Assembly (NCBI GenBank): GCA_964655935.1
Contig: CAZZNY010000001.1
Span: forward strand, 214,606 to 278,605
From: an uncultured Candidatus Peribacteria bacterium
GTDB taxonomy: Bacteria > Patescibacteriota > Gracilibacteria > BD1-5 > UBA2023
Direction of reading: 5' to 3'
Length of the DNA: 64,000 bases
How positions within the stretch are numbered: the first letter of the stretch is position 1; the number at the start of each line of letters is the position of its first letter. Positions 13,186 to 57,872 of the stretch are shown here, piece after piece. The notes beneath the pieces are model-generated. The model did not search any database. It was not told where the DNA came from and saw only the letters and a list, made by a program, of their open reading frames with translations. The position numbers were made by a program, and so were the translations under genes.

Positions 13186-13540
13186 AGTATAGAAGGGTTT
13201 CATAATAGACATATTACCAAATAAGGGGGCGTTGTCTTCGGATGCGTTTTTGGCATACCTGAGACCTCATGTCAGTGGTGATAAGCCAGCTGACCCTTAT
13301 ATTGATTTTTATTTTTGCGATCTTTTAGTGTGTTTGTCAATCATTTCTATCTTGTACTTGACATTATAACCGAAATCCAGTGAATGCAAAACTACAGGTA
13401 TGGACGAATTGAAATATATCATCGTTTTTAGAAAGAATACTTCTCCAATGCGAACAAATCGTGCTGAATATGAAATATAATTTTGACTTGAGAGCATTGC
13501 CTTATATACTTAGGCCAATTTACTTTTTTATTCTCTTTTT

Positions 13541-19426: not shown

Positions 19427-20737
19427 ATGTTTCTAAAAAATAACAGATCCTGATTCACTCTCGTCGAGCTTATCGTTGTCATCACAATACTTTCGATTCT
19501 TTGAACGATTGCTTTTTTATCCCTTAATGGATATTCTTCTTCTGCACGAGATAGTGTACGCATAACCGACGTAAGCCTCATCCAAAAATGACTTGAAATC
19601 TATGATACAAAAGCAGGATTTTACCCAATGGCCGATGGTAATTATGTTACCGTAACTTCTTCTGGATCAGATATATCATATCAAGGGTTTGTATGATCAA
19701 AACTCTCCACTCTCTTAGGATTAAATAACTGAATAATCGATCCGCTTGATGGTGGTCAATATACATATAGTGTCGATACAAAATATAGAAAATATCATAT
19801 CGTATGACTCACTGAAAATAAAGATTCTCTTGCTTTTGTATCTAAGACTTATGCTCTGGATTTTTCTAATCGAAATATTTTATCAAAATGAAATTTTTCT
19901 CTTTCTATTATCTCAAACACGGGAAATACCATAAATACACCCTTGAATTATCTACAAAATTGATGAACGAAAGATATAGATTCTCTAGATCCAAATATAT
20001 ATTGAATGTATCACAATTGTAAAGAAATTAAAAACACTCTCCATACGAATACATCTTGACTGTATCAGATAAATCCAACTTGAACAAAAGTAATCAATGT
20101 TCAGTGTGATATGGAAACAAATGGTTGAGGTTGGACAATTTTTCAAAAAAGAATGGATGGTTCTATGGATTTCTATCGTGATTGGGCGGATTACAAAAAT
20201 TGATTTTGAAATCCACTCACGGAATACTGGATCTGAAATGACAATCTGAATATTCTTACAAATTCTTTCGAAACAACCTGATTACGAATAGATATGCAGA
20301 CTAAAAAAACTGATGGTGGTATAAAAAGATATGCTGAATATTCAAGTTTTAGTACGGACACTGAGGCAAATAAATATAGACTTTCCGTATCTTGATTTTC
20401 CTGAGACACTTATAATTCATTTTGAGGACATAGCTGATTTTCATTTACTACTCGTAATCAAGACAATGATACCAATATCGGTAACTGTGCAGTATCATAT
20501 AAGTGAGCCTGGTGGTACTGAACCTGTCACTCAGCAAATCTGAACTGATTATACTTAAACTGAATTCACAATTCCTACGCAAATGGTATTAATTGGTCTG
20601 GATTTGTTTGATTACCTGGCAATACTCCTTGTGAATGATATAATCCTTGACCAAATAATTCTGTTAACTGTTCGACTCATCCAAGCTCATGATGGGGTTT
20701 TTATTCTCTCCCCTTTGTAGAGATGAAATTACGTTAA
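19427..20737 (+). CDS. type IV pilin-like protein fused to a fibrinogen-related (FReD/FBG) lectin domain (436 aa)
   Basis: MFLKNNRS[G=TGA 19451-19453]FTLVELIVVITILSILGTIAFLSL. The C-terminal half reads [105 protein letters not shown]. TAA at 20735-20737. Confidence 0.85.
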
Positions 20738-28972: not shown

Positions 28973-30097
28973 ATGGACCTAAATCAAGGTGGTGGTGTTG
29001 AAAAAGATAACATACCTGCAACCTGAAACGTATTATCTATTTGAGCATTAAGCAATGGCGTTGCTCAAAAAATTCAACAAACTTCATCACTCGATACTAG
29101 TTGACATAAAAACAACATAGAGTGACTTTTCGCGAATCCATTTCTTTTTTGAGATACTTTAAAAGATATGGACTTTAATGGAATGTTAGAACTATTTATT
29201 GATATTTTAGATTTATTTGAAAATTCAGATTTTCTTTCAAAGATGGAGACGACTACTTTAAGCCCAGTGGTTGCTTTGATTTTCTTTAGAGATAATTGAA
29301 TTAACGCGCTTATAGAAAAGGCGGATTCCTACGATAAAATTCAGGAAGTATACAAACTCATTATGAATCTAGAAAGGTTTTGATTCGAAGCTATTTTTAG
29401 AACCAGTCATTCTTACGATGTTTTTCTTAAAAATGTAACAGATTTATTACTTGATGCGGCTGAACAAGAAAAAAGAGAGATCGACGCTATGAATCTCCTT
29501 ATAGAAAATGCTGAACCAAAAAAGGCACTCTATCTTCTTTCTTTCTATCTTTTAAATAGAACAGAGAAAGATAAAGACTCTACTAGCTGAAATGAAAAAA
29601 AATATAAAATTCCTTCTGATGATTTAGTAACTCTTTCTTGACTGACAGAAAAAGCTTTTCTTATGATTGATGAAAAAAATCTCAATTCTCTTGAAAAAAT
29701 TTGAATCTTTCTTAAACCTATTAAGTTGCTCTACGAACATATTGTTTGATTGCTACCAAGATGATTCGAGGGTAGTGAGATATTATTATCTCATATATGC
29801 AGAAGAGAAGAATTATTGATTGTTTTAGAGCATCAGATATCTCTCTATCTTATGCTTATAAAGTATGAGACTTTTCTCAGGTCTCAACGAGATCTGGAGT
29901 TCATTGTCAATATACCCCTCGATAATTCAACAAAAGTAAGAGATTTTATTATTAATCTTTTACAACAGTATAAAGATAAACTACAAAATTCTGATGTAAT
30001 TAATATGTTGCCTGTCTCATTTAATACAAGAAACTTAGGCAATAATTTCAGTAAAAGAGAGGTTCCCGTTCCACTCTATCACGAATTAAATAAATAA
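28973..30097 (+). CDS. hypothetical protein (374 aa)
   Basis: ATG at 28973. The frame was checked line by line and joins track ORF 29816-30097. 14 in-frame TGA. No recognisable motif. Confidence 0.6.
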
Positions 30098-30111
30098 TGT
30101 CTCGGACAAAT

Positions 30112-30139
30112 AAAAAGAGGTCATGCTTGACCTCTTTTT
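30112..30139. terminator. bidirectional terminator AAAAAGAGGTCA-TGCT-TGACCTCTTTTT
   Basis: 12-bp stem with an A-run and a T-run, between convergent genes. Confidence 0.75.
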
Positions 30140-30144
30140 ATTAA

Positions 30145-30762
30145 TTATTTAGTTATAGTTGATCCAGTAGAAGTAGATCCAGTTCCATTAAATCCTTCTC
30201 CTCTTCCACCCATCATTCCACGTCATTCAAAATTACCACCATCTTGTCATTCAAAACCTCCACGCCCCATCATTCTTCCCTTTCATTTCTCTTTTCCACT
30301 CATTATTCCTTTTGCTCCATCATGTTTTTTATCAAAACCTAATTTTGTTTTTTCTTCAGCAGTAAGATTTTTCATTACTGCTTGTATTTGTGTCATGAGA
30401 GCTTTATGAGCTGTAAGTTCTGCCTCCGAAGGAAGTGGAATTCCTTTTGCTCTCATTGCATCTCGTTTTGCTTTTTCTATCGCTTCACGATCTGTCTCTG
30501 AGAGATTTTTCATAGCTTCTTGTGATTTTTTCATAGTATCCTGAAAAGCTGTTTCTTGTTCTGTCGTAGGAAGTTTGATTCCTTTTGATTCGAGTAATGT
30601 TCGAACTTCAGTATTCTGAAGCATCTGCATTCCTTTTTCTCAACCTCATGAAAATCATTTCATCATATTAGGGAGATTTCCAGTCGCTGCGAGTGAGACG
30701 ATAGGAATAGTGATAGCAAATAAGATTGCTGCCCCGGTGATAAGTCTGTTTTTTGTTTGCAT
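30145..30762 (-). CDS. secreted helical protein with LTxxQ-like repeats (CpxP/Spy flavour) and a Gly/Met-rich tail (205 aa)
   Basis: MQTKNRLITGAAILFAITIPIVSLAATG..., then LPTTEQETAFQD and LTAHKALMTQIQ. The tail reads GRMMGRGGFEGQDGGNFEGRGMMGGRGEGF. Confidence 0.5.
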
Positions 30763-30930
30763 ATATAAAATATTAGTTATAAGTTACAAAGACTAAATGT
30801 CTTTTGCACAGACACTATATGCTTAATAGTTTAACTGAATATTAAATCAGAAAAGAATTTTTCTGTAATTGTTTTTACATCTATAAAAACTCCATATAAT
30901 CTCTGCAATCTCTATTACCAATTCTTTCAT

Positions 30931-31650
30931 TTGACCAATCAGAAACAATCACAAATCATCATCGAAGATCTCACTATCGAAGTCACACAAAAGTCGGTAA
31001 AAAACATGAGACTTCTTGTAAATATTCACGAGAAAAGTATTCGAATTATCGCACCTATTCGGTTAAAACTGGATGGTATTTATGCGTTTGCAGAGCGGAA
31101 AATTCTCTGGATCAAAAAACAGCTTTCGAAAATAGCTCATATCAAACCGAAAATTACATATCAGTACGTTACTGGAGAAATCCATTCTTTTCTCTGAGAA
31201 AAATATATCCTTGAACTCATTGAAACAACGAAAAAACCTCAAGTGATCCTTTGAGAAAAAGCGATCCACATTTACATAGCAGCAAATTCTACACAAGCAC
31301 AAAGAAAAATTCTTCTCGAGTCTTGGCAAAGAAAACAACTCAAAAATCTTATCCCAGAATATATCAAAAAATGGGAATCTATTATGAAAGTCCAAGTAAA
31401 GGATTTTGGTGTCAAAAAAATGAAAACACGATGGTGAACCTGTAATCCACGAGCCCATAGAATCTGGCTCACTCTCGAGCTTATTCATCAGCCGATAGAA
31501 TGCATCGAATATGTGATAGTCCACGAGATGACACACTTACTCGAACGCTGACACGGAAAAAAATTCATCGCATTGATGGATGAATTTTTATCTGATTGGA
31601 GAGAATATAAGAAAGTTTTGAATCAGACGAGATTATGACAAGTTGATTAA
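30931..31650 (+). CDS. YgjP/M48-like metal-dependent hydrolase (DUF45), TTG start
   Basis: ...KTRWGTCNPRAHRIWLTLELIHQPIECIEYVIVHEMTHLLERGHGKKFIALMDEFLSDWREYKKVL. The HExxH motif is present. Confidence 0.75.
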
Positions 31651-32774
31651 GCTACGGCAAGTTCCATTGCTTCCTCAGCTACATTACATAAAATATCATC
31701 CGGAGTTTTTCATTGTAAAAGCAATTTCTCAAATTTTTCTCCTCATCTCTCAACTATTGGTCGAAGTTTTCGATGAAATTCTCTTGGTATTGGACAATAT
31801 CTTGGAGACGCATAACTTAATGCTAAAGTAAGTGATTCATCATAAGAATATCATTTTTGAATCATAAAATACATAAAAAGAAATGATTCAAATTGTAGAT
31901 GATCATAAACAAAACCAATATATTCATCCTGAAAATGTAGAGCATACCTAAGAAGATACTGCACTTGAGATTTCCAATAAACTACAAATCGTTGTTTTAA
32001 TCCACATTTAAAACAAGCTCAAATAAGAGCTAAAATTGGAGAAAGTCATTTTGCTATATATATTTCGCAATAACTAACATATTCTCAAATATTCATCTGT
32101 GATCACTTAAAAGAATTTACAGCATAGGTTAGATATGGCTGTGGCACTCAAAAAGATGTAAGCCTAGATTGTAAATAATTAAGATCATGGATATTTCTAT
32201 CACAAATAACATGATGTTCTTTTGAATCAGGATCGATAATAAATTGAGAGTAGTTACGTAATAATTCTCTATATTCTTCCGTATTAAAGCCTTTTTGTTT
32301 TTTATATTTTATAAGATCCCAAGCATCATCGATCATATCCATTCGCACTGTTTTCGATTCATGTTTTGCGAGTTCTGCCAAAAAATCTTCATCGAACAAA
32401 TATTCATTTCTTCCACGAAATTTCTCGAAAGTGTGTTCAAAATCTACAATAGAAAGTTCATTGAAATATTTCATGAAAGATGGATGTCACTTGAAAATTT
32501 TTAACAAATCTTCCTGAGATCCTGCGGTTCGCCATTTTTTCGCGGCATATGTCACATAGAGAAGATCTCAGAGCTCATCGCGCCTCCCAACATCATCTCA
32601 TTTCACGACTTCGGCCATTACCTCAGCGATCTCATCTTTTACCCATTTTTGGACTAGAGAAAGTGGTCGAAGATCATGTTCGACCTCATATTTTCTATCG
32701 ACAATATCAAAAATAGCTCACAATTTCTGGAGCTTAATGCTATCTTCATTTGATATATTATCTGCTGAGTTCAT
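31647..32774 (-). CDS. hypothetical protein with an N-terminal MazG-like NTP-pyrophosphohydrolase motif (375 aa)
   Basis: ...VQKWVKDEIAEVMAEVVKGDDVGRRDELGDLLYV... Track ORF 32148-32474 extends both ways in frame. TAA at 31647-31649. Confidence 0.5.
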
Positions 32775-32902
32775 GTAAAAAATTATTCAAAAACTGAATA
32801 ATTTATATGGAAATTATTTTAAAAGTCAATAAAATAATAATCTCTTCAATCGCTCGAAGAGATTTTGCATATCTCAGTTTCTTTTTTCTAAATTCTTGTC
32901 CT

Positions 32903-34987
32903 CTAAATTCCTCTCATACTCAACTGCAACTTCCCTTTTTCGCGATCAATTCCTGTCACTTTTACTTTAACTTTTTCTCAGATTTTCACGAAATCCATCG
33001 GATCAGCAACATATGTGTCTGCGATTTGTGAAACATGCACAAGTCAGTCGTTTTTCAGACCAACATCGACAAAAGCTCAGAAAGCGACTACATTTCGTAC
33101 GACTCAGTTTAGAATATCTCATTCTTTTACATCATCAAGCGTAAGTTTTTTTCCAACTTCCATATGACTGCTCGCAGTGCGTGGATCAGCCCCAATGGCA
33201 TTATAAGACTCAGAGATGAATTCGAGCGTAGAAATTTTTACTTCTGGATAGTATTTTTTGAGTTCTGATTCATATCGAGAAAAATCTCGTGAAACTATCT
33301 TATTTTCGATAATGTATTTTGCAAGTTCGTACTGTTCTGGATGAATATTCGTATTATCGAGCGATTCTTTACTCTCGGGGATTCGGAGAAATCCCGCCGC
33401 TTGTTCATAGGCTTTCGCTGAAAGTACTTTTTCGAGTTGTTTTCGCGATTTATATGGTCGATTATTATAGACTTTTTTTGCAGTTCTTTTATCGAAGCCG
33501 GAGATGTGACCAAGTACGTGAATCGAAGCAATATTTACATTTACTCCGACGGTATTTACGACGTCTTCGATCGTAAAACCAAGTTTCTCTTCGAGCTTAC
33601 TTTCCGCGATATCATGCTGATACATTCCGACACCGATACTTCCGACAGGGATTTTTACGAGCTCGGAAAGCGGATCAATATAACGTCTGGCGATCGAGAT
33701 AGTTCCACGATCTGTAACATCGAGATCCGGAAATTCTTCCTGTGCAACTTTCGAAGCACTATAAACAGAAGCGCCCGACTCGTTGACGATATAGATTTTT
33801 GTAGAAAGAACGCTCGTAACGAGTTCTACTGTCTCAGAAGAGGCAGTTCCATTTCCGATTACTACGACTCAGATTTTATGTTTTTCCGCAAGTTCTGCGA
33901 TGATTTTCTTTGCAGCTTCAAGTTCGTGAAGATAGATTTTATTGAATTCCAGAGGATTTCCAAATTCATCCAAGACAACAATTTTACATCCTGTACGATA
34001 TCCAGGATCAATTCACAATACTTTCATACCATATTCAGGTTTTGTCATAAGGAGATTCCAGAGATTTGCCTGAAAAGTTCGAATAGATTCGTCTTCACCT
34101 TTTTCTGTAAGTATTCCGCGGATCTCAGTTTCGACAGACTTAAATAATGCTGTATATCCTTTATCGATCGCTTCTTCGAGTTCTGGTATAAGAGTTGAGC
34201 GAGCACTTCATGAAAGTTCAAGAAATGTATTTTTCAAAATATCATACGCGATATCATCTTTGTCGATTTTCACCGCAAGAATTCCAAGATTTTCTCCACG
34301 ATTTAGGGCAAGTGTCTGATACGGCTTTATTCGAGCAATGGCAATAGAAAAATCTGCATATATATCGAATTTCTTTACTTCGCCTCGAACTTTTTCATTG
34401 AGTTTTTCGAGCATTTTCTCACTTTTGAGTTTTGATACCATCTGACCACTACCGAAGTAATACGCTCTTTGTCCATCTCGAAGAATCGCATGAGCTGTAA
34501 TCTCAGCCGCGATAATCTCGATCGCTCATTCGATAATTTCTTCACGCGGATATTCTGTGAGAAGATTTTCTGGAATCGTATATTCACGATTTTTCTTAAT
34601 TAAATCAGCCACCACTTGAAATCATTTTTCGATTGCGAGCATCGCTTTTGTTTTTTTCTTGAGTCGATATGGTGCATAAATATCTTCAACTTCTTTAAGG
34701 GTTTTTGCTAGCTCAATATTTCTGGCAAGTTCTGGAGTGAGACTTCCCTGCTCTTCGATCCCAGTCAAAGCAGTTACTTTGGCTTTATAGAGAGTCTCCT
34801 CTTTCTTTCGAAGATCGATAATATCGCGAATCTGGTTCTCATCGAGTTCTCCAGTTCGTTCCTTTCGATATCGCGCAATAAAAGGAACAGTAGCACCTTC
34901 CTCGGTAAGTGAAAGAACCGTCTCTATCTGCCAAACTTTAAGAGAAAGTTCTGATTCGATAATTTTGATATAATTTGGTTCGAGCAT
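32903..34987 (-). CDS. tex: Tex-like transcription accessory protein (S1 RNA-binding domain at the C-terminus), 694 aa
   Basis: N-terminal motif TVPFIARYRKERTGELDENQIRDI. C-terminal S1 domain [35 protein letters not shown]. Track ORFs 34622-34987, 34208-34441 and 33119-33625 share the frame. All gaps were checked. Confidence 0.9.
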
Positions 34988-49205: not shown

Positions 49206-51275
49206 ATGAGTAAATCAATGATCTATCTCAACGAACTCATCCTTACGAAAGTAAGGGCTCTAAAAACAATATCTTCTTGGAGTCGACCACCGACCCTCTA
49301 TCAAAGTCATCAGTACCACTGGGGATGGATCATGTGTATTCTCCTCTTATTTACTCAGCCCTGTTTTTCTACTGAGCCTTTGCAGATTCCCGCAGGCTTA
49401 GACGGAAAAAATCTAGGACATCATGTAGAAATTTTACATGATCCTGAAGGTCGTCTGAGTATCGATGATGTTAGTGTTGGATCTGCTTCTACGCGATTCA
49501 CACCATCATTTTCAGATACTCCAAATCTAGGATACACAAAAGATACTATCTGGGTTCGTCTACCTATGGTCAATTTGCAGGATACGACACATTCCTTTTT
49601 ATTGGAAATGTCGTATCCACTTATGGACCGTATTGAAGTTTTTGTAAAAAATAATGGACAGTGGACTCAACGGATAACTGGAGATCATCAGCCATTTAAT
49701 CAACGGGAAATTCAGTATCCAACCTATCTTTTCCAGGTTGATCTTACCCCTCAAGAAAAAACTGTCTATTATTTCCGTTTCCAGTCGACAACATCTATGA
49801 GCATTCAGCTGTCCGCCTGGGAAAAACAAGGTTTTCTCGAGCACTTCAGTCACGAACTCACTTTGATGGGGATTTTCTGTGGCATCGTATTAGCCATGGC
49901 AATTTTCAACTTTTTTGTGTTTTTGGCAACTCGAGACAAAAGTTATCTCTACCTAGTAATTGTTATTATTCATTGTTTGCTATTTACGACCATTATGAAT
50001 GGTGTGGCTTTCCAATATTTTTGGCCAAACCAGATTTGGTTAGCAAATTATTCACTCCCACTTACTATCGCTTTCTCAAATTTATCATTTTTGCAGTTTA
50101 CTCGGACATTTCTTGAACTACGAGCGAATCAGCCACGGCTTGACTTGCTCGTGCGTATCTTACAAATAGGATGTGTAGGGATCGCTCTTGCTGTTCCTAT
50201 TATTCCATATGAAATAAGCATACGGCTACTAGTGATCATGTCCACCATAACTGTAATAATGATCCTTTTTATAGGAATAATAAGTCTAAACCAAGGATAC
50301 AGAGCGGCAAGAATTTTTTTACTTGCCTGGACTGGTCTTATTTTCGGCAATACCATCTTGTCTTTAAAGGTTTTCGGAATCCTGCCGGACGTCTTTTTGA
50401 CTCGATGGAGTCCTCAATTAGGAATTCTTGCGCTTGTGCTCCTTATTTCCCTTGCGCTTGTAGACAAGCTACATATTCTCAAGAAAGGATTAGAAACATT
50501 AACCACGAATCTCGATAAGACAGTTCATGAACGCACCCACGAACTCGCCATTGCGAATCATGAACTACGGGAAATGAATATGCAAAAAAATCAATTTTTC
50601 GGGATCGTGGCCCATGATCTCAGAAACCCCCTAAATGGTATTATGCTTGCAGCGCAGCTTTTGGACGATGAAGATTATCCAAAAGATGTTCAACACACTG
50701 CACGGCAAATTAATCATGAAGGTGTGGAAATGACGGCTCTCATCGGGCGTTTCCTTGATATCTCTCGAATAGAATCTGGACAGATGTGTGCAGAACCAGA
50801 GGTTTTTCACCTCCAGGAAGTTATACACCATATCGCGAATCGCCATACGAATGGAGGGATAAAAAAAGATATTTCTCTCGTGTTCGTCATGTCGAATACT
50901 CCGATCTTGGTATATGCAGACATCAAGTTCATGAAAGAGGTCTTGGACAACCTCATTTCCAATGCTATTAAATTTTCCCCGCGAGAAAAAATTATCACTA
51001 TTCGAGCGGAGATTACAGGGGGTAAAGCTCAAATTTCAATCGAAGATCAAGGACCTGGCCTCACAAAAGAAGACCACGCAAAGCTCTTCGGACGATTTGC
51101 ACGTCTCAGTGCTCAGCCGACAGATGGAGAAAAATCCACTGGCCTAGGATTATCCATAGTTAAACACATGGTGGATAGTACTGGCGGCCGAATCTGGGTA
51201 GAGAGCGAACCTGGCTATGGAGCTGCATTCCGCGTGGAACTCCCATTACCACCAGATACAAAAGATATAAACTAA
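49206..51275 (+). CDS. 7TMR-DISM-type sensor histidine kinase (689 aa), compositionally foreign
   Basis: Periplasmic domain plus 7 TM segments. H-box FFGIVAHDLRNPLNGI, N-box LDNLISNAIKFSP, G-boxes IEDQGPGL and GTGLGLSIVK. 689 codons without a single TGA. AGGAGA lies 7 nt upstream of the ATG. Confidence 0.85.
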   Translation: MSKSMIYLNELILTKVRALKTISSWSRPPTLYQSHQYHWGWIMCILLLFTQPCFSTEPLQIPAGLDGKNLGHHVEILHDPEGRLSIDDVSVGSASTRFTPSFSDTPNLGYTKDTIWVRLPMVNLQDTTHSFLLEMSYPLMDRIEVFVKNNGQWTQRITGDHQPFNQREIQYPTYLFQVDLTPQEKTVYYFRFQSTTSMSIQLSAWEKQGFLEHFSHELTLMGIFCGIVLAMAIFNFFVFLATRDKSYLYLVIVIIHCLLFTTIMNGVAFQYFWPNQIWLANYSLPLTIAFSNLSFLQFTRTFLELRANQPRLDLLVRILQIGCVGIALAVPIIPYEISIRLLVIMSTITVIMILFIGIISLNQGYRAARIFLLAWTGLIFGNTILSLKVFGILPDVFLTRWSPQLGILALVLLISLALVDKLHILKKGLETLTTNLDKTVHERTHELAIANHELREMNMQKNQFFGIVAHDLRNPLNGIMLAAQLLDDEDYPKDVQHTARQINHEGVEMTALIGRFLDISRIESGQMCAEPEVFHLQEVIHHIANRHTNGGIKKDISLVFVMSNTPILVYADIKFMKEVLDNLISNAIKFSPREKIITIRAEITGGKAQISIEDQGPGLTKEDHAKLFGRFARLSAQPTDGEKSTGLGLSIVKHMVDSTGGRIWVESEPGYGAAFRVELPLPPDTKDIN

Positions 51276-51364
51276 AATCAAAATATCGTCCCACCCGAGA
51301 CTATTGCATTCGCAAGAATCTAACAAATTTTTGTCGAGTACGAAACTCGGGAACAAGAAGGACG

Positions 51365-51395
51365 AAAAAGCTCACCGAATTTTGGTGAGCTTTTT
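51365..51395 (+). terminator. terminator AAAAAGCTCACC-GAATTTT-GGTGAGCTTTTT
   Basis: 12-bp stem plus T-run, 90 nt after the kinase stop. Confidence 0.7.
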
Positions 51396-51618
51396 CTGTA
51401 AAAGAAGTGTAATTTATTCATAGCGAAAACAAAAAAATCATCTACCGTAAAAACATTTATTTATGTATCTCAATCATAGATATACTCTTGATGACATAGT
51501 TACAATCAGACTAAAGTTATGGGACTTTGAACCCATTACATGGAAATAAATTCAAAAAAGTATTGAGTTTGGTTGAATTCACTTATAATGCGACACTAGT
51601 AGAATTAATAGAAAAAGT

Positions 51619-52404
51619 ATGAGCAAGATCAATGATCTAGATCTCACTAACTGGAAAGAACTAGAAGATATCTGGACGGATAGTCTCTGGGTAATTAACG
51701 AACGCGATAAAAAAGGTAAACATTCAAATTTCTATCACGGAAATTTCGTACCACAGATACCAAATCAAATGATAAAAAGATATACAAAAAAATGAGGCTG
51801 GGTGCTTGATATGTTCCTTTGAAGCGCCACAACAGCTATAGAATGTGAAAATCTTGAGAGAAATATCATCTGAATAGATATACAAGAAAATCTTATAGAG
51901 AGAGCTAAAAATCTAATAGTTTCAGATAAAATAGCAAAACATTTTTGAGTCTGAGACAGTGGTAGTAAGAAAATAGCAACAGATATACAGAAAGTTCTTA
52001 AATATCATAAAATCGATTGAGTTGATCTCGTAATGCTTCATCCTCCATACTTTGATATTATCAAATTCAGTGATAAAAAAGAGGATCTCTCAAATACTGA
52101 CTCAATCAATAGTTTTCTAAAACTATTTGGCAAAGTCTTAAAAAATAGTTTTGATTTATTAAAAAAGGGATGATACGCCTGTGTCGTGATAGGAGATAAA
52201 TATCAAAATAGTGAGTGGATTCCTTTATGATTTCAATGTATGTCTGAAGCTCAGAAAGTAGGTTTCAAACTCAAAAGTATCGTTGTAAAAAATATGGAAT
52301 GAAATCGTGGAAAACTCGGAAGTTGATGAATCTGGCGATATAGAGCTCTTAGTAGTGACTATTATATTTTTAAGCATGAGTATATTTTAGTTTTTAAGAA
52401 ATAA
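51619..52404 (+). CDS. SAM-dependent DNA methyltransferase (N6-A/N4-C type, HPPY catalytic motif), 261 aa
   Basis: FVPQIPNQMIKRYTKKGGWVLDMFLGSATTAIEC (motifs X and I), then VMLHPPYFD (motif IV). Frame checked, 13 TGA. Confidence 0.75.
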
Positions 52405-52409
52405 ATAAT

Positions 52410-54119
52410 ATGGATTCTTCTCTCCTACAAACAGAATCAGCAGGTTTTTCTGAAATTCTATGAAACTGAAAAAAATGTTTTGTACCAATTTATCAAAGAG
52501 AATATTCTTGGGAAGAGGAAAATTGGAGTGATCTATGGGATGATATAATATCTTCAGAAAGATATAGTAAAGAACATTATCTGTGAGCAATAGTACTAAT
52601 GAATCGGAGTGATTGACACTATGACTTAATTGACTGACAACAACGTCTTAGTACACTTACTATTTTTACTGCTGCAATAATAAAAAAGCTTGAAGAATTA
52701 GTTTCTTCAAATACAGATTGAGCTGAAAACAAAGAAAGAATAGATGAAATAAAAAGAGATTATATAGGATCAAAGAATAAAATCGATTTGACATATTCAA
52801 GCCATTTAACACTGAGTGAAAATAATAATACTTTCTTTAATACTCATATTATCAATTGAGATATTGTTCGAAATCCTTCACAACTAAAAGATTGAAATAA
52901 ACTTATTTACGATTGTTTACAATTCTTTAAAAGCAAAATTTCTGAATTTTTTCATAATTCAGGCATTGGAACAGATTGATCAAAAATAACAGAATTCCTT
53001 GAAAAAATATTACGCAAATACATGAAGTTTATATTAATCTCAGTCAAAGATGAGTCTAGTGCATACACTGTTTTTGAAACTTTAAATTCTAAATGAGTTT
53101 CACTATCAACAACTGACTTGTTAAAAAATTATATTTTTTCATTATCATCATGATCGATTAATGATCTAAATCATATAAAAATAAAATGGTGAGAATTAAT
53201 AGATAAAATTGGTATGCGTGATTTTCCAGATTTTTTGAGGTACTATATTTGATCATACCAAGATATTCCGGAGAAAAAAAATCTTTATAGAGAAATAAAA
53301 TCAGTTGCAACCGACAAACAACAAGCAATAACATTAATGAATAATCTCTTAAGATATTCGGATATATATTGTGCCTTATTTGATAGTGATGACGAATACT
53401 GGAATGATTTTCCTGAAAATGCAAAAATTAAAGAATATATTAAAACTTTAAAAAGTTTTTGAGTAAAGCAATATATATCAGTATTTTTTTCTTGAATTCT
53501 TAATCTTGATAAAGATGATATCTATAAGCTATTTAATATAATAAAAGTAATTACCTTTAGATATACCACAATTTGATGACAAAACCCTAAAGTTATAGAA
53601 AAAGAATACAACAAAGTAGCAAAACGTATTTTTAGTAAAGAACTAAACACAATTACTTGAATATTTAATTCATTAAAAGATTGAGGAGTGTACCCATGAG
53701 ATGAAATATTTAAATCATATTTTGAAACAAAAATTCTTAAAAGTTGATCTAATAAATCAGTAATACGATACATATTATGAAAAATAGAATGTCACCTATC
53801 TTGAACAAACATAGATTATGATACTTTAACCATAGAACATATTATTCCTGAAAATCCAACAGCACTTTGGAAAACAAGCTATTGAACTACTATATCTGAT
53901 GATATATATAGATTATGAAATTATATTTTACTTGAAAAAGGACTCAACAGCGCTGCGCAAGATAAAATTTTTATGGATAAAAAAAGTATCTACAAAAAAA
54001 GTGTTTATCATCTAAAGGATAAAATTTTAGAGAAAACCAATTGGACACCACAAACATTAAAGGAATATCAAAAATTTCTTTCTTTACAAGCATCGAGTCT
54101 TTGGTCATTACAATATTAA
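52410..54119 (+). CDS. GmrSD-like type IV restriction enzyme (DUF262 + DUF1524), 569 aa
   Basis: FVPIYQREYSWEEENW, IDGQQRLSTL, and C-terminal LTIEHIIPEN...GNYILLEKGLNS. About 25 in-frame TGA. All lines were translated. Confidence 0.8.
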
Positions 54120-54194
54120 AATTGGTACTTATAGTCTGTAGATTTATAGTCGTCATTTCATATAATGGCGACTATATTTTGTTTTATTTACACT

Positions 54195-54395
54195 ATGGAT
54201 ATCAAAACTAAATTCTGAGATCGTGTACGAGACCTTCGTAAGAAACTCTGACTTTCACAAGAAGAGCTTGCCACCAAATGTAAACTTCATCGTACCTACA
54301 TAGGAATTATTGAGCGTTGAGAAAAAAATGTTTGTCTCGAGAATATTGAAATTCTTGCAAAAAATCTTGAAGTTGATATTAAAGATTTATTTTAA
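54195..54395 (+). CDS. XRE-family HTH regulator (C-protein-like), 66 aa
   Basis: MDIKTKFGDRVRDLRKKLGLSQEELATKCKLHRTYIGIIERGEKNVCLENIEILAKNL. Confidence 0.8.
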
Positions 54396-54411
54396 TAAAG
54401 TCATCTCCATT

Positions 54412-55578
54412 ATGGCAAATCACATTTTTACAGTTAATGAGACAACTTTCAAGACTCACTTAAACTACATGTTTGCATGAACAGGAAGCTGAACTTGAGA
54501 TGAATGACAAGAGCACCAATTTTGAGCTCTTACAGATATATTATCTTTACGAGAATGAGATAATATATTGTTTTATGTTGAGAGATATTGATTTTATTGA
54601 GTTTTTAAAGTTAAGAAATTTGATAACGATAATTGCGTATTTTATGAACCCTTAGAAGATCATAAGTATGCTGATAGGTTAAATCGAAAAATATTAACCT
54701 ATCGAGTTTTTATGGATGTAAACGATAAAATCGGTGTTTTTAGGAAATGAATCTCAGAGTGGAACATGATAGAAAATCCAACTAATATCAAAGATTTATC
54801 TATATATAATATACAATGGTCTTGGGTGTTCAAAAAACTAAAATGAAATAGATGATGTTTATCAATACCAGATGATGAGTTCTCAAGTATGGTATCTATA
54901 CTATCTCAAAATAACCACAAACTCCAATCGGGACTTAATTTTGATTTTGACAATGGTATAATAAAACCATTAAATAACCCACAAATAAAATACTGAGATA
55001 TTAAAATCGAAATCACTTATGAGAAAATATATAATTCTCTACAGATCATTCATCAAGAAATTGACTTAAGAAAATTTTTTACCAGTAAAATAGGAAATAC
55101 TGACAGTAATATTTTTAATATCATTATCAATGAAGATGTAAATTTAATATTAAATGAGATTAAATGTTCATTTTGAGATAAAAGTATGGATTTGCTTATA
55201 AGTACAAAAAGTAACGAATGTTACCTAATTGAACTTAAAAATAATTTCGAATATAATGAATCGATTTATGGTCAGCTTTATTGATATTCTAGATGGATAT
55301 CAAGCTACAAAAATTATACAAAAATTTTTCCTATACTTATATTGAGAGCACCAAGAGATGTGACCAATAGAAGATGATCTCAATATTTTAAATACCTTTC
55401 TAATGCCAACAAAGAGAACAATATTACTTCTGATTGGTATAATGAAATCATTACATCGATTAATTCCTGAAGAAATAATTTATTTAAATCATGAGTTGAT
55501 AATTTACAAGAATTAAAAGTGTATTTATTTGACGTAGACGAAAACAATAAAATTACTCAATTTAGTATTTTAAACTAA
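54412..55578 (+). CDS. putative restriction endonuclease: PUA/EVE-like N-domain plus PD-(D/E)xK-like core (388 aa)
   Basis: N-terminal region ILSLREGDNILFYVERYGFYGVFKVKK. C-terminal region DLLISTKSNECYLIELKNN (D...E-x-K). All lines were translated. TAA at 55576-55578. Confidence 0.5.
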
Positions 55579-55581
55579 AAA

Positions 55582-56235
55582 ATGACAAATAATCCATTTA
55601 ATAACTGAACTCAAATCTATAAAATATTTGAAATTTTGTCAGATTTAAACTGGCACTGTTCAGAACATGAGCTTCCAGGAAGTCAGCCAGCAAAAGCTCT
55701 CCAAATGATTCGCCAAGCAGGTTTTGTAATGGAGCAGGTTTGATCAAATTATGAAAAAAGAATATTTTGTGAGATTTGTGGAAGGAAAACCCCACACAGA
55801 AAATTAGTTTCTCTCAAAAAAGAAGAGGTCTCTGTGGAACGAACCAAAACGCTGGATTCAAAACTTAAAGAGAGGATTATTAAATTATTTGAAAATAAAG
55901 ATGCCTTCCTAGCTTATGAACCAACTTGAAGAAAAATAGAAGTTGACCATAGAATTCCCCAGGTAAGATGGACGGATAAAGAAGAAGGCTATATAAATAT
56001 GACAGATGAAGAATTAAAGGAAAAATTCATGTTATTAGTTCGTGAACATAATCTATTGAAAAGTCGAAATTGTGAAAAATGTAAAAGAACTTGAGTTCGT
56101 CAAGAATTTTTATGAATAAACTTTTTTTATGAATGAAATGAGAATTATTTAGAAAAACAATGATGTAAATGATGTGGCTGGTACAACCCGGAAATTTGGC
56201 GCAAATATTTAAATAAAAAAATAACTTGAAAATAA
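55582..56235 (+). CDS. HNH/His-Me finger endonuclease with Zn-binding CxxC pairs (217 aa)
   Basis: CEICGRK...IEVDHRIPQVRW...REHNLLKSRNCEKCKRTG...GCKGCGW. It starts 4 nt after the preceding stop. Confidence 0.65.
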
Positions 56236-56287
56236 TTCAATTTGAATACTATAAGTATCAAAGTATTAAATCACAACCTATAAACCA

Positions 56288-57355
56288 ATGAACTATATTG
56301 GCTCTAAATTGTCACTTTTAGAATTTATCGAACAATGAATCAATTCCATCGTCTGAGCAAGAAATTATACTTTTTCTGATCTCTTCGCTGGTACTGGTAT
56401 TGTTGGTCGTTTTTTCAAGCAAAAATGACACAAAGTAATAGCAAATGATCTACAGTATTACAGTTACGTGTTGAATCGTAATTATATAGGAAACCATACC
56501 GATCTTTATTTTACGAATCTTCTTGATGAAATTCCTGAACTTCTCATATGAAATGTTAATAATTACAAACAGATTATATGCGATTATCTAAATAAACTTC
56601 CAAACAAGTCAGGTTTTATCTATGAAAATTACACACTTTGAGGAACTCAATGAAAAACCTTTGAAAGACAATATTTTAGTGATGAAAATGCGCTCAAGTG
56701 CGATACTATTCGCCAAAAAATCGAGAATTGGAAGTGAAACTGAAAAATAAATGAGGATGAATATTATTTTCTTCTTGCAAGCCTCCTTGAAGCTATCGAT
56801 AAAGTTGCTAACACAGCCTCTGTTTATGGCGCTTTTCTCAAGAAACTTAAAAAATCAGCATCAAAAACACTTAAAGTAGTTCCGGCTGAATATCACTACA
56901 ATGAACAATGACACGATGTATTTAATGAGGATATCAATACTCTTATCGGAAATACGAGTCATGATGTTGTATATCTTGATCCTCCTTATAATCAACGACA
57001 ATATTCTGGAAATTATCATATTCTTGAGACTATCGCAAAATATGATAATCCTGAAATCAGATGAAAAACTTGAATGCGAGACTGTAAGATGCAAAAATCC
57101 TCATATTGTAGCAGAAATGATGTAAAAAAAGCATACCAAGAACTTATTAATAAAATCGATGCAAAATATATTTTCCTGAGTTATAATGATGAATGATTAA
57201 TGACACTGACTGATATAGAAGAAGTAATGTCGTCTCGATGAGACTATGGAGTTTTTAAAAAAGAATATAGAAGATTTAAAGCTGACAAAACAGAAAGTAG
57301 GAATCACAAAAAAGAAAGTGTTATAGAATATCTTCACTATGTAATTATCAAATAA
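56288..57355 (+). CDS. D12-class (Dam-like) N6-adenine DNA methyltransferase (355 aa)
   Basis: MNYIGSKLSLLEFI..., FSDLFAGTGIVG (motif I), VVYLDPPYNQRQYS (motif IV), FLSYNDEG. Frame checked. Confidence 0.8.
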
Positions 57356-57365
57356 AATCCACCTT

Positions 57366-57399
57366 AAAAAATTCTCCAGTTTTCACTGGAGAATTTTTT
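57366..57399. terminator. bidirectional terminator AAAAAATTCTCCAGT-TTTC-ACTGGAGAATTTTTT
   Basis: 15-bp perfect stem between the methyltransferase stop and the tmRNA 3' end. Confidence 0.8.
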
Positions 57400-57409
57400 A
57401 AAATCTTTT

Positions 57410-57872
57410 TGGTGGAGATGGCGAGATTCGAACTCGCGTCTTGAGAGGCCACCCGGCAATGTACTACTATCATAGACCATTCATTGTACTCATAATTATA
57501 GGAAATGGACAAGAGAAATTATGAGAAATATCTTATATACTATGTCTGTTCAAGATACTTACGAACGATAGACAAAGATGAAAAGCGGATACAAGAACGG
57601 TAATTTTTCATGACTCCGGTCAGGTTTGCGATCAGGCCATCTGGCACATCCCACCGAAGCAGGAAATCGCGTTTTACTTAAGCTAAACCACTTAATTAAT
57701 TAAGCAGCGAGAGCAAAAGAAGGAGTAGCAGTTCGGAGTTTTCCGAAAGCACGACCGAGAACAGAATTGTTTGCATGTATATGCGACCGTATTTGATTGC
57801 GGAAGCTACGGACAGCTCCCGGATAGCATTGACGAATGACTGGATCTCTCAATAGAATCCAAGATCATCCCC
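57410..57872 (-). ncRNA. ssrA: tmRNA (ssrA), about 463 nt
   Basis: The 5' GGGGATG pairs with the 3' CATCTCC-ACCA, giving a G3:U wobble. The T-arm is GCGAGTTCGAATCTCGC. The tag frame GCA AAC AAT ... GCT CTC GCT GCT TAA (57774-57700) encodes ANNSVLGRAFGKLRTATPSFALAA. Confidence 0.9.

What the first reader, a model, noticed from the sequence alone, without database searches (positions are those of the whole stretch)
51619..57355. Six-gene restriction/defence island inserted directly at the 3' end of the tmRNA gene, with unusual M-TypeIV-C-R-R'-M organisation
All six genes are on the plus strand, 2-75 nt apart. In order they are: an HPPY methyltransferase; a GmrSD-like DUF262/DUF1524 enzyme, which in known systems attacks modified DNA; an XRE C-protein-like regulator; a 388-aa protein with a PUA/EVE-like head and a D...ExK core; an HNH/Zn-ribbon endonuclease starting 4 nt later; and a Dam-like D12 methyltransferase. 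The island ends in a 15-bp terminator only 11 nt from the CCA end of ssrA. That position is the classic integration hot-spot for genomic islands. Two different nucleases sit behind one regulator, bracketed by two methylases, with a modification-dependent enzyme alongside. This is not a standard type II operon and may act as a composite system.
Basis: partly seen in the sequence, partly recalled or inferred. Interest (0 to 1): 0.7.

Follow-up and report, generated by a model that had tools for sequence, protein, structure and literature searches.

The report
Modular restriction island beside tmRNA gene
A horizontally acquired six-gene anti-phage island in a recoded (UGA=Gly) bacterium is a widespread, previously undescribed restriction-modification module (two methylases, a regulator, two nucleases), with a separate modified-DNA-cutting enzyme plugged into a swappable slot.

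Summary
Six + strand genes (51619-57355, read with UGA=Gly) lie between a histidine kinase gene and the 3' end of an intact tmRNA gene. They form a low-GC, UGA-rich patch.

Annotations confirmed:
- g1: HPPY N6_N4 methylase (M1)
- g2: GmrSD/HEC-06 type IV enzyme
- g3: C-protein with a double C-box
- g4: EVE-like + PD-(D/E)xK nuclease (P)
- g5: ICEA/NlaIII-family HNH nuclease (H)
- g6: D12 methylase (M2)

The new result concerns how these genes relate. P belongs to an uncharacterised family found at 290 loci in GTDB species representatives. In 47 of 48 well-flanked loci it sits beside M1 and/or M2, usually with H, in at least five gene orders. Short M1 occurs with M2 (35/39). Long M1 occurs without it (24/25). 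M1-(C)-P-H-M2 is therefore a co-adapted R-M module, not a chance neighbourhood.

GmrSD is an add-on. No GmrSD homolog lies near the module in any of the 80 loci scanned. Related Gracilibacteria carry other cargo in exactly the same slot.

The ssrA-insertion claim is supported only by position. There is no integrase, no att repeat and no usable empty site. Three Gracilibacteria relatives carry the module elsewhere.

A CATG target is plausible but unproven.

The parts
51397..51618 (+). Left border and upstream region of g1: AT-rich, after the terminator of the histidine kinase gene (hairpin 51364-51396)
   Evidence: Terminator scan. GC drops from here. Not conserved in relatives: DNA homology starts only inside g1 at 51631-51680. 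No repeat shared with the ssrA side.
51619..52404 (+). g1 = M1, short-form amino-methyltransferase (N6_N4_Mtase family). Motif I comes before motif IV, and motif IV is HPPY.
   Evidence: Pfam 1.9e-31. PADLOC MTase_II 2.4e-100. HPPY is invariant in 67/67 homologs. An M1 homolog is adjacent to the g4 homolog in 45/48 well-flanked loci.
52410..54119 (+). g2 = GmrSD-like (DUF262 + DUF1524) type IV restriction enzyme of the HEC-06 type. It is the cargo of cassette slot 1.
   Evidence: Pfam GmrSD_N and GmrSD_C. PADLOC HEC-06 4.4e-176. DGQQR and EHIIP motifs are present and correspond to the motifs essential in HEC-06. The DNA homology break with L001 and L171 coincides with this ORF. No GmrSD homolog near the module in the 80 loci scanned.
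54126..54151 (+). Double C-box operator: TACTTATAGTC-TGTA-GATTTATAGTC. A TATAAT -10 element lies at 54161-54166, and box 2 pairs with GACTATA in a hairpin (54145-54176).
   Evidence: It is the only double GACTnnnAGTC-type site in the 64 kb. It is conserved in L001 and L171, and variants lie upstream of C genes in Clostridia-type modules. Hairpin, with one compensatory change between the window and L001.
54195..54395 (+). g3 = C (controller) protein, an XRE-type HTH
   Evidence: Pfam HTH_3 1.8e-12. PADLOC Control_protein 5.7e-23. 86% identical in L001 and 68% in L171. C homologs precede the nuclease genes in Clostridia-type modules.
54412..55578 (+). g4 = P, an EVE/PUA-like N-domain plus a PD-(D/E)xK nuclease C-domain. 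Inferred to be a methylation-sensitive restriction endonuclease. It is the cargo of cassette slot 2.
   Evidence: 77 homologs, with invariant E216, N248-E249, D260 and E274-L-K276. AF2 model of homolog P0034: pLDDT 91.4. Foldseek: THYN1/EVE/VcaM4I/YTH for the N-domain; SfsA/EcoO109I/NucS/BbvCI for the C-domain. Methylase adjacent in 47/48 loci. Exactly absent in L171.
55582..56235 (+). g5 = H, an HNH (beta-beta-alpha-Me, Zn-binding) restriction endonuclease of the ICEA/NlaIII family
   Evidence: Pfam ICEA 1e-9, 38.7 bits against a cut-off of 24. PADLOC REase_II 1.6e-30. E120, D122, H123, N157, C164, C167, C195 and C198 are conserved in the family. 78-80% identical in L171 and L001.
56288..57355 (+). 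g6 = M2, a D12-class (Dam-like fold) adenine methyltransferase with FAGTG and DPPY motifs
   Evidence: Pfam 5e-48. PADLOC MTase_II 7e-115. Motifs conserved. Nearest homologs are 71-76% identical, in Ca. Gracilibacteria. Homology with all relatives ends exactly at its stop codon.
57366..57399 (.). Bidirectional hairpin terminator (15-nt arms, 4-nt loop, A/T runs on both sides), shared by g6 and ssrA
   Evidence: It lies 10 nt after the g6 stop and 10 nt before the ssrA 3' end.
57410..57872 (-). ssrA (tmRNA), intact. Its 3' CCA end faces the island. Tag: ANNSVLGRAFGKLRTATPSFALAA.
   Evidence: Rfam RF00023, 86 bits, full length. Sequence read. Missed by ARAGORN.

Best explanation
The segment is a horizontally acquired defence island from a low-GC, code-25 (Gracilibacteria-type) donor. 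It has two layers.

Layer 1 is a co-adapted type II restriction-modification module. Two methylases, M1 (g1, HPPY N6_N4-type) and M2 (g6, D12-type), mark host DNA. A C-protein (g3) binds a double C-box upstream of its own gene. It delays and autoregulates the g3-g4-g5 transcription unit (the unit may extend into g6). That unit encodes two different nucleases: P (g4, an EVE-like reader domain plus a PD-(D/E)xK core) and H (g5, an NlaIII/IceA-family HNH enzyme). Both nucleases cut invading DNA that lacks the marks. The two methylases most likely protect the same or overlapping sites. That site is probably CATG, because H belongs to the NlaIII family.

Layer 2 is a GmrSD/HEC-06-type type IV enzyme (g2). 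It is embedded in a swappable slot between M1 and the C-box. It attacks modified (hypermodified-base) phage DNA that would escape layer 1.

Shown: gene identities, fold, intact catalytic motifs, the conserved operator, recurrent linkage, cassette boundaries and foreign composition.

Inferred: methylation sensitivity of P, a shared target site, CATG as that site, and complementarity of the two layers.
For: Identities.

Linkage: among 48 g4-family loci with at least 2.5 kb on both sides, M1 is adjacent in 45, M2 in 36, H in 31, and at least one methylase in 47. At least five gene orders occur across Bacteroidota, Campylobacterota, Clostridia, Planctomycetota, Spirochaetota, CPR and archaea.

Co-adaptation: short M1 occurs with M2 in 35/39 loci (3 of the 4 exceptions are cut by a contig end). 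Long M1 occurs with M2 in 1/25. Fisher p = 1e-14.

Cross-protection is implied by natural subsets: M1L-P-H without M2 (Planctomycetota), P-M2 without M1 (Helicobacter), and M1-C-H-M2 without P (L171).

C control: the unique double C-box is conserved in L001, L171 and Clostridia-type loci. C sits directly upstream of the nucleases, which is the arrangement expected when the downstream nuclease is toxic to unmethylated host DNA (established knowledge of C-protein systems such as PvuII, AhdI and Esp1396I).

CATG: H is a member of the ICEA family. CATG O/E is 0.51 in the flanks of carrier loci and 0.94 in controls, the strongest of 16 palindromes at p = 2e-18. It is 0.73 in the window outside the island.

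GmrSD: HEC-06 match with both essential motifs. The slot cargo differs in relatives and has exact ORF-level breakpoints. GmrSD-like genes embedded in other defence systems are documented.

Horizontal transfer: GC and UGA usage. Nearest homologs are in low-GC Gracilibacteria. L169 shows the same low-GC patch in a higher-GC genome.
Against: - No biochemical or methylome data exist. The target site and the base modified by M1 (HPPY is atypical) are unknown.
- EVE-nuclease fusions characterised so far are modification-dependent, not methylation-sensitive.
- M1L-P pairs, and H-M2 pairs (NlaIII and HpyI from established knowledge; L171 here), exist on their own. The four genes could therefore be two autonomous systems that merely travel together.
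- CATG depletion in carriers is accompanied by depletion of GATC, CTAG and GGCC, and the control loci come from different taxa.
- The operon structure is inferred from spacing only. Promoter-like hits in the region are not clearly above shuffled expectation (51 against 39.9 +/- 6.2).
Confidence: 0.65

Rival explanations
1. The island is three independent systems packed together with no functional coupling: an M1/C/P type II system, an NlaIII-like H/M2 type II system, and a GmrSD type IV enzyme. Each has its own target.
For: M1L-P alone is the most common architecture (17 of 80). L171 has M1-C-H-M2 without P. NlaIII and HpyI are two-gene systems (established knowledge). Defence genes cluster in islands in general (abstracts).
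Against: The same four families are interleaved in at least five different orders across distant phyla. M2 and the N-terminal extension of M1 are mutually exclusive, p = 1e-14. Subsets lacking one methylase keep both nucleases, and subsets lacking a nuclease keep both methylases.
Confidence: 0.2
2. g4 (P) is a modification-dependent (type IV or IIM) nuclease, like other EVE/PUA-nuclease fusions. It targets foreign modified DNA, possibly in addition to unmodified DNA. The island would then carry two modified-DNA sensors (g2 and g4) plus one NlaIII-like R-M pair.
For: The N-domain has an EVE-like fold matching THYN1 with 5mC DNA, VcaM4I, YTH and McrB-N. Published surveys classify EVE-PD-(D/E)xK fusions as putative type IV. 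Bell et al. also propose dual-mode systems in which an EVE-associated R-M system restricts both unmodified and modified DNA.
Against: Fewer than 6% of PUA-nuclease fusions have a DNA methylase within 3 kb, and that absence is the published argument for modification dependence. Here 47/48 loci have one, often with overlapping stop and start codons. A C-protein directly precedes g4. Many loci are M1L-P only, so M1 has no other partner.
Confidence: 0.12
3. P and H form one hetero-oligomeric restriction enzyme. Each could cut one strand, or P could supply the reader/recognition function and H the cutting. M1 and M2 would each modify one strand or base of its site. This would resemble type IIT enzymes such as BbvCI and Bpu10I.
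For: P and H are always adjacent when both are present (3-nt gap here; overlaps or gaps under 40 nt elsewhere) and occur in either order. There are two methylases and two nuclease genes. BbvCI appears among the weak structural matches to the nuclease domain.
Against: P occurs without H in about a third of well-flanked loci, and H occurs without P in L171 and in NlaIII/HpyI-type systems. All catalytic residues of both proteins are conserved, but that does not discriminate.
Confidence: 0.12
4. The island arrived by site-specific integration into the 3' end of ssrA, as classic tmRNA-targeting genomic islands do.
For: The conserved unit ends 55 nt from the ssrA 3' end, with a shared terminator. 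Composition is foreign. A second, unrelated host (Malaciobacter mytili) has the module about 1.3 kb from the 3' end of its tmRNA gene in the same orientation. Several other loci lie next to tRNA genes.
Against: No integrase or recombinase gene is in or beside the island. No direct repeat of the ssrA 3' end occurs at the left border or anywhere else in the window, and none occurs in L002. ssrA is complete. Three Gracilibacteria relatives carry the module at three other chromosomal positions with no tmRNA within 10 kb. Homology among relatives ends exactly at gene boundaries, not at att-like sequences.
Confidence: 0.3

Closest known systems
NlaIII / HpyI (iceA1-hpyIM) type II R-M systems (CATG)
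   Same: g5 passes the Pfam ICEA gathering score and keeps the HNH and CxxC motifs. It is followed by a D12-class adenine methylase of about 335-355 aa in the same orientation, as in iceA1-hpyIM (gene order in H. pylori from established knowledge and the papers listed).
   Different: Here the pair is embedded in a larger module with a second methylase (M1), a second nuclease (P) and a C-protein. The CATG specificity of g5/g6 was not tested, and sequence similarity to the ICEA profile is moderate (1e-9).
C-protein-controlled type II R-M operons (PvuII, AhdI, Esp1396I type)
   Same: A small XRE HTH protein lies immediately upstream of the nuclease gene. Two GACTnnnAGTC-like boxes 4 bp apart lie upstream of the C gene and are conserved in relatives.
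   Different: One C-protein precedes two different nuclease genes. The cognate methylase genes lie at the two outer ends, and an unrelated defence gene is inserted between M1 and the operator.
DpnII-type systems with two methylases (DpnM D12-class + DpnA N6_N4-class) for one site
   Same: One D12-class and one N6_N4-class methylase sit in a single module. g1's best-but-one PDB sequence match (second in the list) is a DpnA. The strict co-occurrence of short M1 with M2 resembles a main methylase plus an auxiliary methylase.
   Different: M1 has a permuted motif order and an HPPY motif. There are two nucleases instead of one. Identical specificity and any ssDNA activity are untested.
EVE/PUA-nuclease modification-dependent restriction enzymes (VcaM4I/TspA15I EVE-HNH; putative EVE-PD-(D/E)xK type IV enzymes)
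   Same: The domain logic is the same: an N-terminal EVE-like pseudobarrel plus a C-terminal nuclease.
   Different: The g4 family is almost always next to dedicated DNA methylases (47/48), against fewer than 6% for known PUA-nuclease fusions. It is also under C-protein control, which points to methylation-sensitive rather than methylation-dependent cleavage. Pfam's EVE model does not detect the domain.
HEC-06 / GmrSD-like defence genes embedded in other immune systems (Payne et al. 2024; BrxU in BREX)
   Same: g2 matches the HEC-06 profile end to end (4e-176) and has the DGQQR and EHxxP motifs shown to be essential. It is nested in the same orientation inside a multi-gene system.
   Different: The host system is a type II R-M module, not Hma, BREX or type I R-M. 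The slot is defined to the base pair and holds alternative cargo in relatives: DUF262 plus an HEPN-like protein, or a 134-aa ORF.

Membership tests
Pfam ICEA (IceA1/NlaIII restriction endonuclease family), for g5 | Score above Pfam's gathering threshold | tested here: met
   38.7 bits against a cut-off of 24, E = 1e-9. Also PADLOC REase_II 1.6e-30.
Pfam ICEA (IceA1/NlaIII restriction endonuclease family), for g5 | HNH beta-beta-alpha-Me catalytic residues and Zn-binding cysteines | tested here: met
   E120, D122, H123, N157, C164, C167, C195 and C198 are at least 90% conserved in 43 homologs and present in g5.
Pfam ICEA (IceA1/NlaIII restriction endonuclease family), for g5 | Cleavage at CATG, blocked by m6A | not testable with these tools
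   Indirect only: CATG under-representation near carrier loci.
GmrSD / HEC-06 type IV restriction enzymes, for g2 | DUF262 (GmrSD_N) and DUF1524 (GmrSD_C) domains in one chain | tested here: met
   1.3e-39 and 8.1e-24. HEC-06 profile covered at positions 5-567 of 569.
GmrSD / HEC-06 type IV restriction enzymes, for g2 | DGQQR NTPase motif and (D/E)H-x-x-P nuclease motif | tested here: met
   DGQQR at residues 75-79 and IEHIIPE in the C-domain. These are the motifs mutated in HEC-06.
GmrSD / HEC-06 type IV restriction enzymes, for g2 | Restriction of modified-base DNA / antiphage activity | not testable with these tools
   No assay was possible.
C-protein-regulated type II R-M | Small HTH C-protein upstream of, and co-oriented with, the nuclease gene | tested here: met
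   g3 lies 16 nt upstream of g4. Control_protein profile 5.7e-23.
C-protein-regulated type II R-M | Palindromic C-boxes upstream of the C gene | tested here: met
   54126-54151 is the only such double site in the window, and it is conserved in L001, L171 and Clostridia-type loci.
C-protein-regulated type II R-M | Cognate methylase protecting against the nuclease | tested here: inconclusive
   Methylases are adjacent in 47/48 family loci, but protection was not tested.
Modification-dependent EVE/PUA-nuclease fusions (type IV/IIM), for g4 | PUA-superfamily (EVE) sensor domain fused to a nuclease domain | tested here: met
   Foldseek probability 0.99-1.0 to THYN1, EVE proteins and VcaM4I, and to PD-(D/E)xK nucleases. 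Invariant D...ExK.
Modification-dependent EVE/PUA-nuclease fusions (type IV/IIM), for g4 | No cognate DNA methylase nearby (the published hallmark, under 6%) | tested here: not met
   47/48 loci have M1 and/or M2 adjacent. Criterion.
Modification-dependent EVE/PUA-nuclease fusions (type IV/IIM), for g4 | Cleavage requires modified bases | not testable with these tools
   No assay was possible.
ssrA-integrated genomic island | Location directly at the 3' end of the tmRNA gene | tested here: met
   The g6 stop is 55 nt from the ssrA 3' end.
ssrA-integrated genomic island | Integrase/recombinase gene in the island | tested here: not met
   None among the six genes or their neighbours.
ssrA-integrated genomic island | Direct repeat of the ssrA 3' end (attL/attR) at the far border | tested here: not met
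   No shared k-mer of 10 nt or more between the borders. No 16-mer of the ssrA 3' 60 nt, allowing up to 2 mismatches, occurs elsewhere in the window.
ssrA-integrated genomic island | Empty site in related genomes | tested here: inconclusive
   Only 100%-identical contigs were found. The nearest rpoB relatives (52-56% identity) lack ssrA-rpoB synteny.
Embedded defence genes (Payne et al. 2024) | Gene nested in the same orientation inside a multi-gene defence system, with variable cargo at the same position in homologous systems | tested here: met
   The slot between M1 and the C-box holds GmrSD (window), DUF262 plus an HEPN-like protein (L001) or a 134-aa ORF (L171), with conserved junctions.
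DpnII-like two-methylase R-M | D12-class and N6_N4-class methylases in one system | tested here: met
DpnII-like two-methylase R-M | Both methylases modify the same site, one acting on ssDNA | not testable with these tools
   Only inferred, from subsets lacking one methylase.

The most novel reading that the evidence does not exclude
The g4 family would be the first class of restriction endonucleases in which an EVE/PUA 'modified-base reader' domain works inside a classical methylase-protected (methylation-sensitive, or dual-mode) R-M system. The M1...M2 pair would act as a conserved platform into which different nucleases and type IV enzymes are swapped at two base-pair-defined slots. M1's invariant HPPY motif may mark an atypical methylation chemistry or target.
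Probability: 0.3. Interest if true: 0.75.

Novelty: new variant of a known kind. Interest (0 to 1): 0.6.

Why it matters
1. The work defines a large, uncharacterised restriction-nuclease family (EVE-like + PD-(D/E)xK). Its genomic behaviour contradicts the working rule that PUA/EVE-nuclease fusions are modification-dependent. That rule is used to annotate type IV enzymes.

2. It reveals a recurrent two-methylase, two-nuclease module with an exclusivity rule (M2 against the M1 N-terminal extension). This is a directly testable hypothesis about methylase cooperation.

3. It extends 'embedded' defence genes to type II R-M systems, with cassette slots defined to the base pair.

4. The island's dense UGA=Gly usage means it can be exchanged in working form only among code-25 lineages. 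This is a concrete case for studying how an altered genetic code channels horizontal transfer of defence genes.

5. New enzymes with possibly new cleavage behaviour at a 4-bp site would be of practical interest.

Tried and rejected
- ARAGORN on the window found no tmRNA or tRNA. Rfam was needed.
- Table-11 ORF tools are unusable in this region, so Python with table 25 was used throughout.
- g4 had no hit in Pfam, NCBIfam, PADLOC (one insignificant hit) or PDB sequences.
I modelled the code-11 homolog P0034 instead.
- An exact look-up of the kinase protein to find strain variants returned nothing. The contigs carrying g4 were 100% identical to the window.
- The empty-site search through the rpoB N-terminus in metagenomes found only distant relatives without conserved synteny.
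- The search for att-like repeats was negative in both the window and L002.
- Public names for partner proteins were generic. The large search with g6 gave no specificity-bearing names such as M.NlaIII.
- hhalign of the long-M1 N-terminal extension against M2, H and P found no homology, and Pfam found nothing in it.
- Viral fold library matches were weak.
- The Ureaplasma UpaP162 (CA^TG) paper was checked as a possible g4 relative, but its sequences are held only as an image.
- CATG avoidance in the window alone was too weak to use. The pooled analysis is suggestive but confounded by taxon.

Full report

Yes. The ORF tools use table 11 and shatter the region.

UGA encodes Gly, not Trp. It falls on the G of the DGQQR motif of g2. 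It also falls on three invariant or nearly invariant Gly positions of the g4 family, whose members in standard-code organisms have GGN there. The host is therefore a code-25 organism (Gracilibacteria/Absconditabacteria). The nearest homologs of g6 are in Ca. Gracilibacteria.

ARAGORN finds no tmRNA. Rfam finds a complete one at 57410..57872 on the minus strand. It has a proper 3' ...CTCCACCA end and the tag ANNSVLGRAFGKLRTATPSFALAA.

A 15-bp-stem hairpin (57366-57399) separates the g6 stop from the tmRNA 3' end, with 10 nt on either side.

The island has 25-30% GC, against 37-43% around it. UGA supplies 66% of its Gly codons, against 22% elsewhere in the window (p = 1e-21).

**2. What are the genes?**

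- g1 is an N6_N4-family methylase with motif I before motif IV and an HPPY motif. HPPY is invariant in 67/67 homologs.
- g2 is a full GmrSD. It matches PADLOC's HEC-06 profile end to end (4e-176) and carries the DGQQR and EHxxP motifs that Payne et al. showed to be essential for HEC-06 antiphage activity.
- g3 is a C-protein. Upstream of it lies TACTTATAGTC-TGTA-GATTTATAGTC, the only double GACTnnnAGTC-type site in the 64 kb. This site is conserved in two Gracilibacteria relatives, and variants lie upstream of C genes in Clostridia-type versions of the module.
- g4 has no sequence-family match. It has 77 full-length homologs with an invariant E...NE...D-x13-ExK signature. A confident AF2 model of a homolog (pLDDT 91.4, pTM 0.90) shows two domains. 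The N-terminal domain is EVE/PUA-like (THYN1 with 5mC DNA, EVE proteins, VcaM4I, YTH). The C-terminal domain is a PD-(D/E)xK nuclease (SfsA, EcoO109I, NucS, BbvCI).
- g5 is a member of Pfam ICEA (the IceA1/NlaIII family) with conserved HNH and CxxC motifs.
- g6 is a D12-class adenine methylase.

**3. The main finding: a recurrent module**

A scan of one genome per GTDB species with the g4 family profile found 290 loci, of which 80 were fetched. I searched their ORFs with the six window proteins.

Among the 48 loci with at least 2.5 kb on both sides:

| Neighbour of the g4 homolog (P) | Loci (of 48) |
|---|---|
| g1-type methylase (M1) | 45 |
| g6-type methylase (M2) | 36 |
| g5-type nuclease (H) | 31 |
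| C-protein | 8 |
| At least one methylase | 47 |
| GmrSD | 0 |

The orders include M1-P-H-M2, M1-H-P-M2, C-H-P with M1 and M2 convergent, M2-P-H-M1, M1L-P and M1L-P-H. They occur in Bacteroidota, Campylobacterota, Clostridia, Planctomycetota, Treponema, several candidate phyla and archaea.

M1 comes in a short form (about 262 aa) and a long form (about 380 aa, with an N-terminal extension that has no detectable homology). Short M1 occurs with M2 in 35/39 loci, and 3 of the 4 exceptions are cut by a contig end. Long M1 occurs with M2 in 1/25 loci (p = 1e-14).

Natural subsets keep both nucleases with a single methylase (M1L-P-H, and P-M2 in Helicobacter). One keeps both methylases with a single nuclease (L171: M1-x-C-H-M2).

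I infer that M1 and M2 protect the same or overlapping sites, and that the four genes form one co-adapted system.

**4. Why g4 is probably methylation-sensitive despite its EVE domain**

Lutz et al. found a DNA methylase within 3 kb of fewer than 6% of PUA-nuclease fusions, and used that absence to argue for modification dependence. Bell et al. list EVE-PD-(D/E)xK fusions only as putative type IV enzymes.

The g4 family is the opposite case. A methylase is adjacent in 47/48 loci, often with overlapping stop and start codons. In this window g4 is the first gene after a C-protein, the device that delays expression of nucleases toxic to unmethylated host DNA.

A dual-mode enzyme, blocked by the cognate mark but also recruited to foreign marks, is not excluded.

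**5. GmrSD is embedded cargo**

DNA comparison with three Gracilibacteria relatives gives exact breakpoints.

- Homology runs through the M1 stop codon and the following ATG, where the junction TTTTAGTTTTTAAGAARTAAAnTnATGG is conserved. It breaks over g2 and resumes at the C-boxes.
- This slot holds GmrSD here. In L001 it holds a DUF262-only protein plus a weak HEPN-like protein. In L171 it holds a 134-aa ORF.
- A second slot, between C and H, holds g4 here and in L001 and is empty in L171.
- In L169 the M1...M2 frame holds two unrelated nucleases (HNH_2 and NmeDI_C).

Embedding of GmrSD-like genes in Hma, BREX and type I R-M systems is published. This case extends it to a type II module. The functional logic, that a type IV enzyme catches modified DNA which escapes the R-M layer, is an inference by analogy with BrxU in BREX.

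**6. Target site**

CATG is the best guess, because H belongs to the NlaIII/IceA family. CATG is the most significantly depleted palindromic 4-mer around carrier loci (O/E 0.51 against 0.94 in controls, p = 2e-18).

However, GATC, CTAG and GGCC are also depleted there, and the controls come from different taxa. In the window itself CATG O/E is only 0.73. I rate CATG at about 0.45.

**7. The ssrA claim**

The position is as described, but nothing else marks a site-specific integration.

- There is no integrase.
- There is no repeat of the ssrA 3' end.
- Homology with relatives ends exactly at the g6 stop codon, not at an att-like sequence.
- The only other contigs are identical to the window.
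- The nearest rpoB relatives are too distant to compare.
- Three Gracilibacteria carry the module at three other places with no tmRNA within 10 kb.

In favour, Malaciobacter mytili independently has the module facing the 3' end of its tmRNA gene. Some other loci abut tRNA genes.

Horizontal acquisition from a low-GC code-25 donor is well supported. The same low-GC patch appears in the higher-GC genome of L169. Integration by an ssrA-specific mechanism is not supported.

**8. Verdict**

The gene-level observation is correct. The 'composite system' idea is right for M1, C, P, H and M2, and wrong for GmrSD as a fixed member. The 'unusual' arrangement is in fact a widespread, undescribed module.

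Novelty: a new variant of known kinds (type II R-M, embedded defence gene), containing an uncharacterised nuclease family with an unexpected reader domain.

Noticed in passing
window 49206-51275 (+): The 7TMR-DISM histidine kinase gene just upstream of the island has 0 UGA among 41 Gly codons, where the window average is 22% (binomial p about 4e-5). It reads identically in codes 11 and 25, so it may be a recent import from a standard-code bacterium. Highly expressed rpoB and rpoC also avoid UGA (5/95 and 0/21).
   Followed up: partly
window 57410-57872 (-): ARAGORN fails to detect this tmRNA although Rfam scores it at 86 bits full-length. The tag is unusually long (24 aa, ANNSVLGRAFGKLRTATPSFALAA) and is followed by TAA.
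   Followed up: partly
window 19427-20737 (+) and 17819-19417 (+): Two adjacent type IV pilin-like proteins (N-terminal methylation motif). The first carries a Fibrinogen_C domain (Pfam 2.7e-61), which as far as I know is uncommon in bacterial proteins.
   Followed up: no
window about 29000-33000: A second low-GC (30-34%), UGA-rich patch (59-63% of Gly codons are UGA). It contains orphan ORFs, a YgjP-like metallopeptidase (30931-31650) and a protein with a weak PRA-PH/MazG-like match (31647-32774). It may be another acquired segment.
   Followed up: partly
window 4780-13212 (-): A giant ORF of 2810 aa in code 25, with 41 UGA codons. It was not analysed.
   Followed up: no
window 54145-54176: The second C-box pairs with a downstream GACTATA to form a 13-bp hairpin followed by a T-run. 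The TATAAT -10 element lies in the loop. Between the window and L001 one stem pair changes G-C to A-T, a compensatory change. The hairpin could terminate the g1-g2 transcript or modulate the C promoter.
   Followed up: partly
L169 8461-9922 and L170 9204-9920: In other Gracilibacteria the g6-type methylase is preceded by nucleases of the HNH_2 and NmeDI_C families. These share a roughly 70-aa N-terminal domain with each other (IEQVM-NNG-APL-LIYKE...). I did not test whether it is a winged helix or methylation reader, so that remains speculation. It is odd to find such nucleases next to an adenine methylase.
   Followed up: no
L171 3020-11289: A Gracilibacteria defence cluster combines a DpnII-type system (D12 methylase, DpnII nuclease, DpnA-like methylase) and KwaA with the M1-x-C-H-M2 module. 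It lies between ribosomal protein genes and recG.
   Followed up: no
L001 6912-11103: Downstream of the six-gene homolog in L001 lie a HEPN_Toprim_N protein, several orphan ORFs and a large serine recombinase. There the module sits in a bigger and possibly mobile defence island.
   Followed up: no
L002 7219-8478 and 5740-5997: In Malaciobacter mytili the H position is taken by an unrelated 419-aa orphan protein, and an 85-aa orphan sits between M1 and P. Neither has a Pfam match. This is further evidence of cassette turnover.
   Followed up: partly
g4 residues 19-25 versus g6 residues 31-37: The invariant YMFAGTG of the g4 family's EVE-like domain resembles the FAGTG SAM-binding motif I of the neighbouring D12 methylase. 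This is probably coincidence, because the predicted fold is not a Rossmann fold, but I did not examine it.
   Followed up: no
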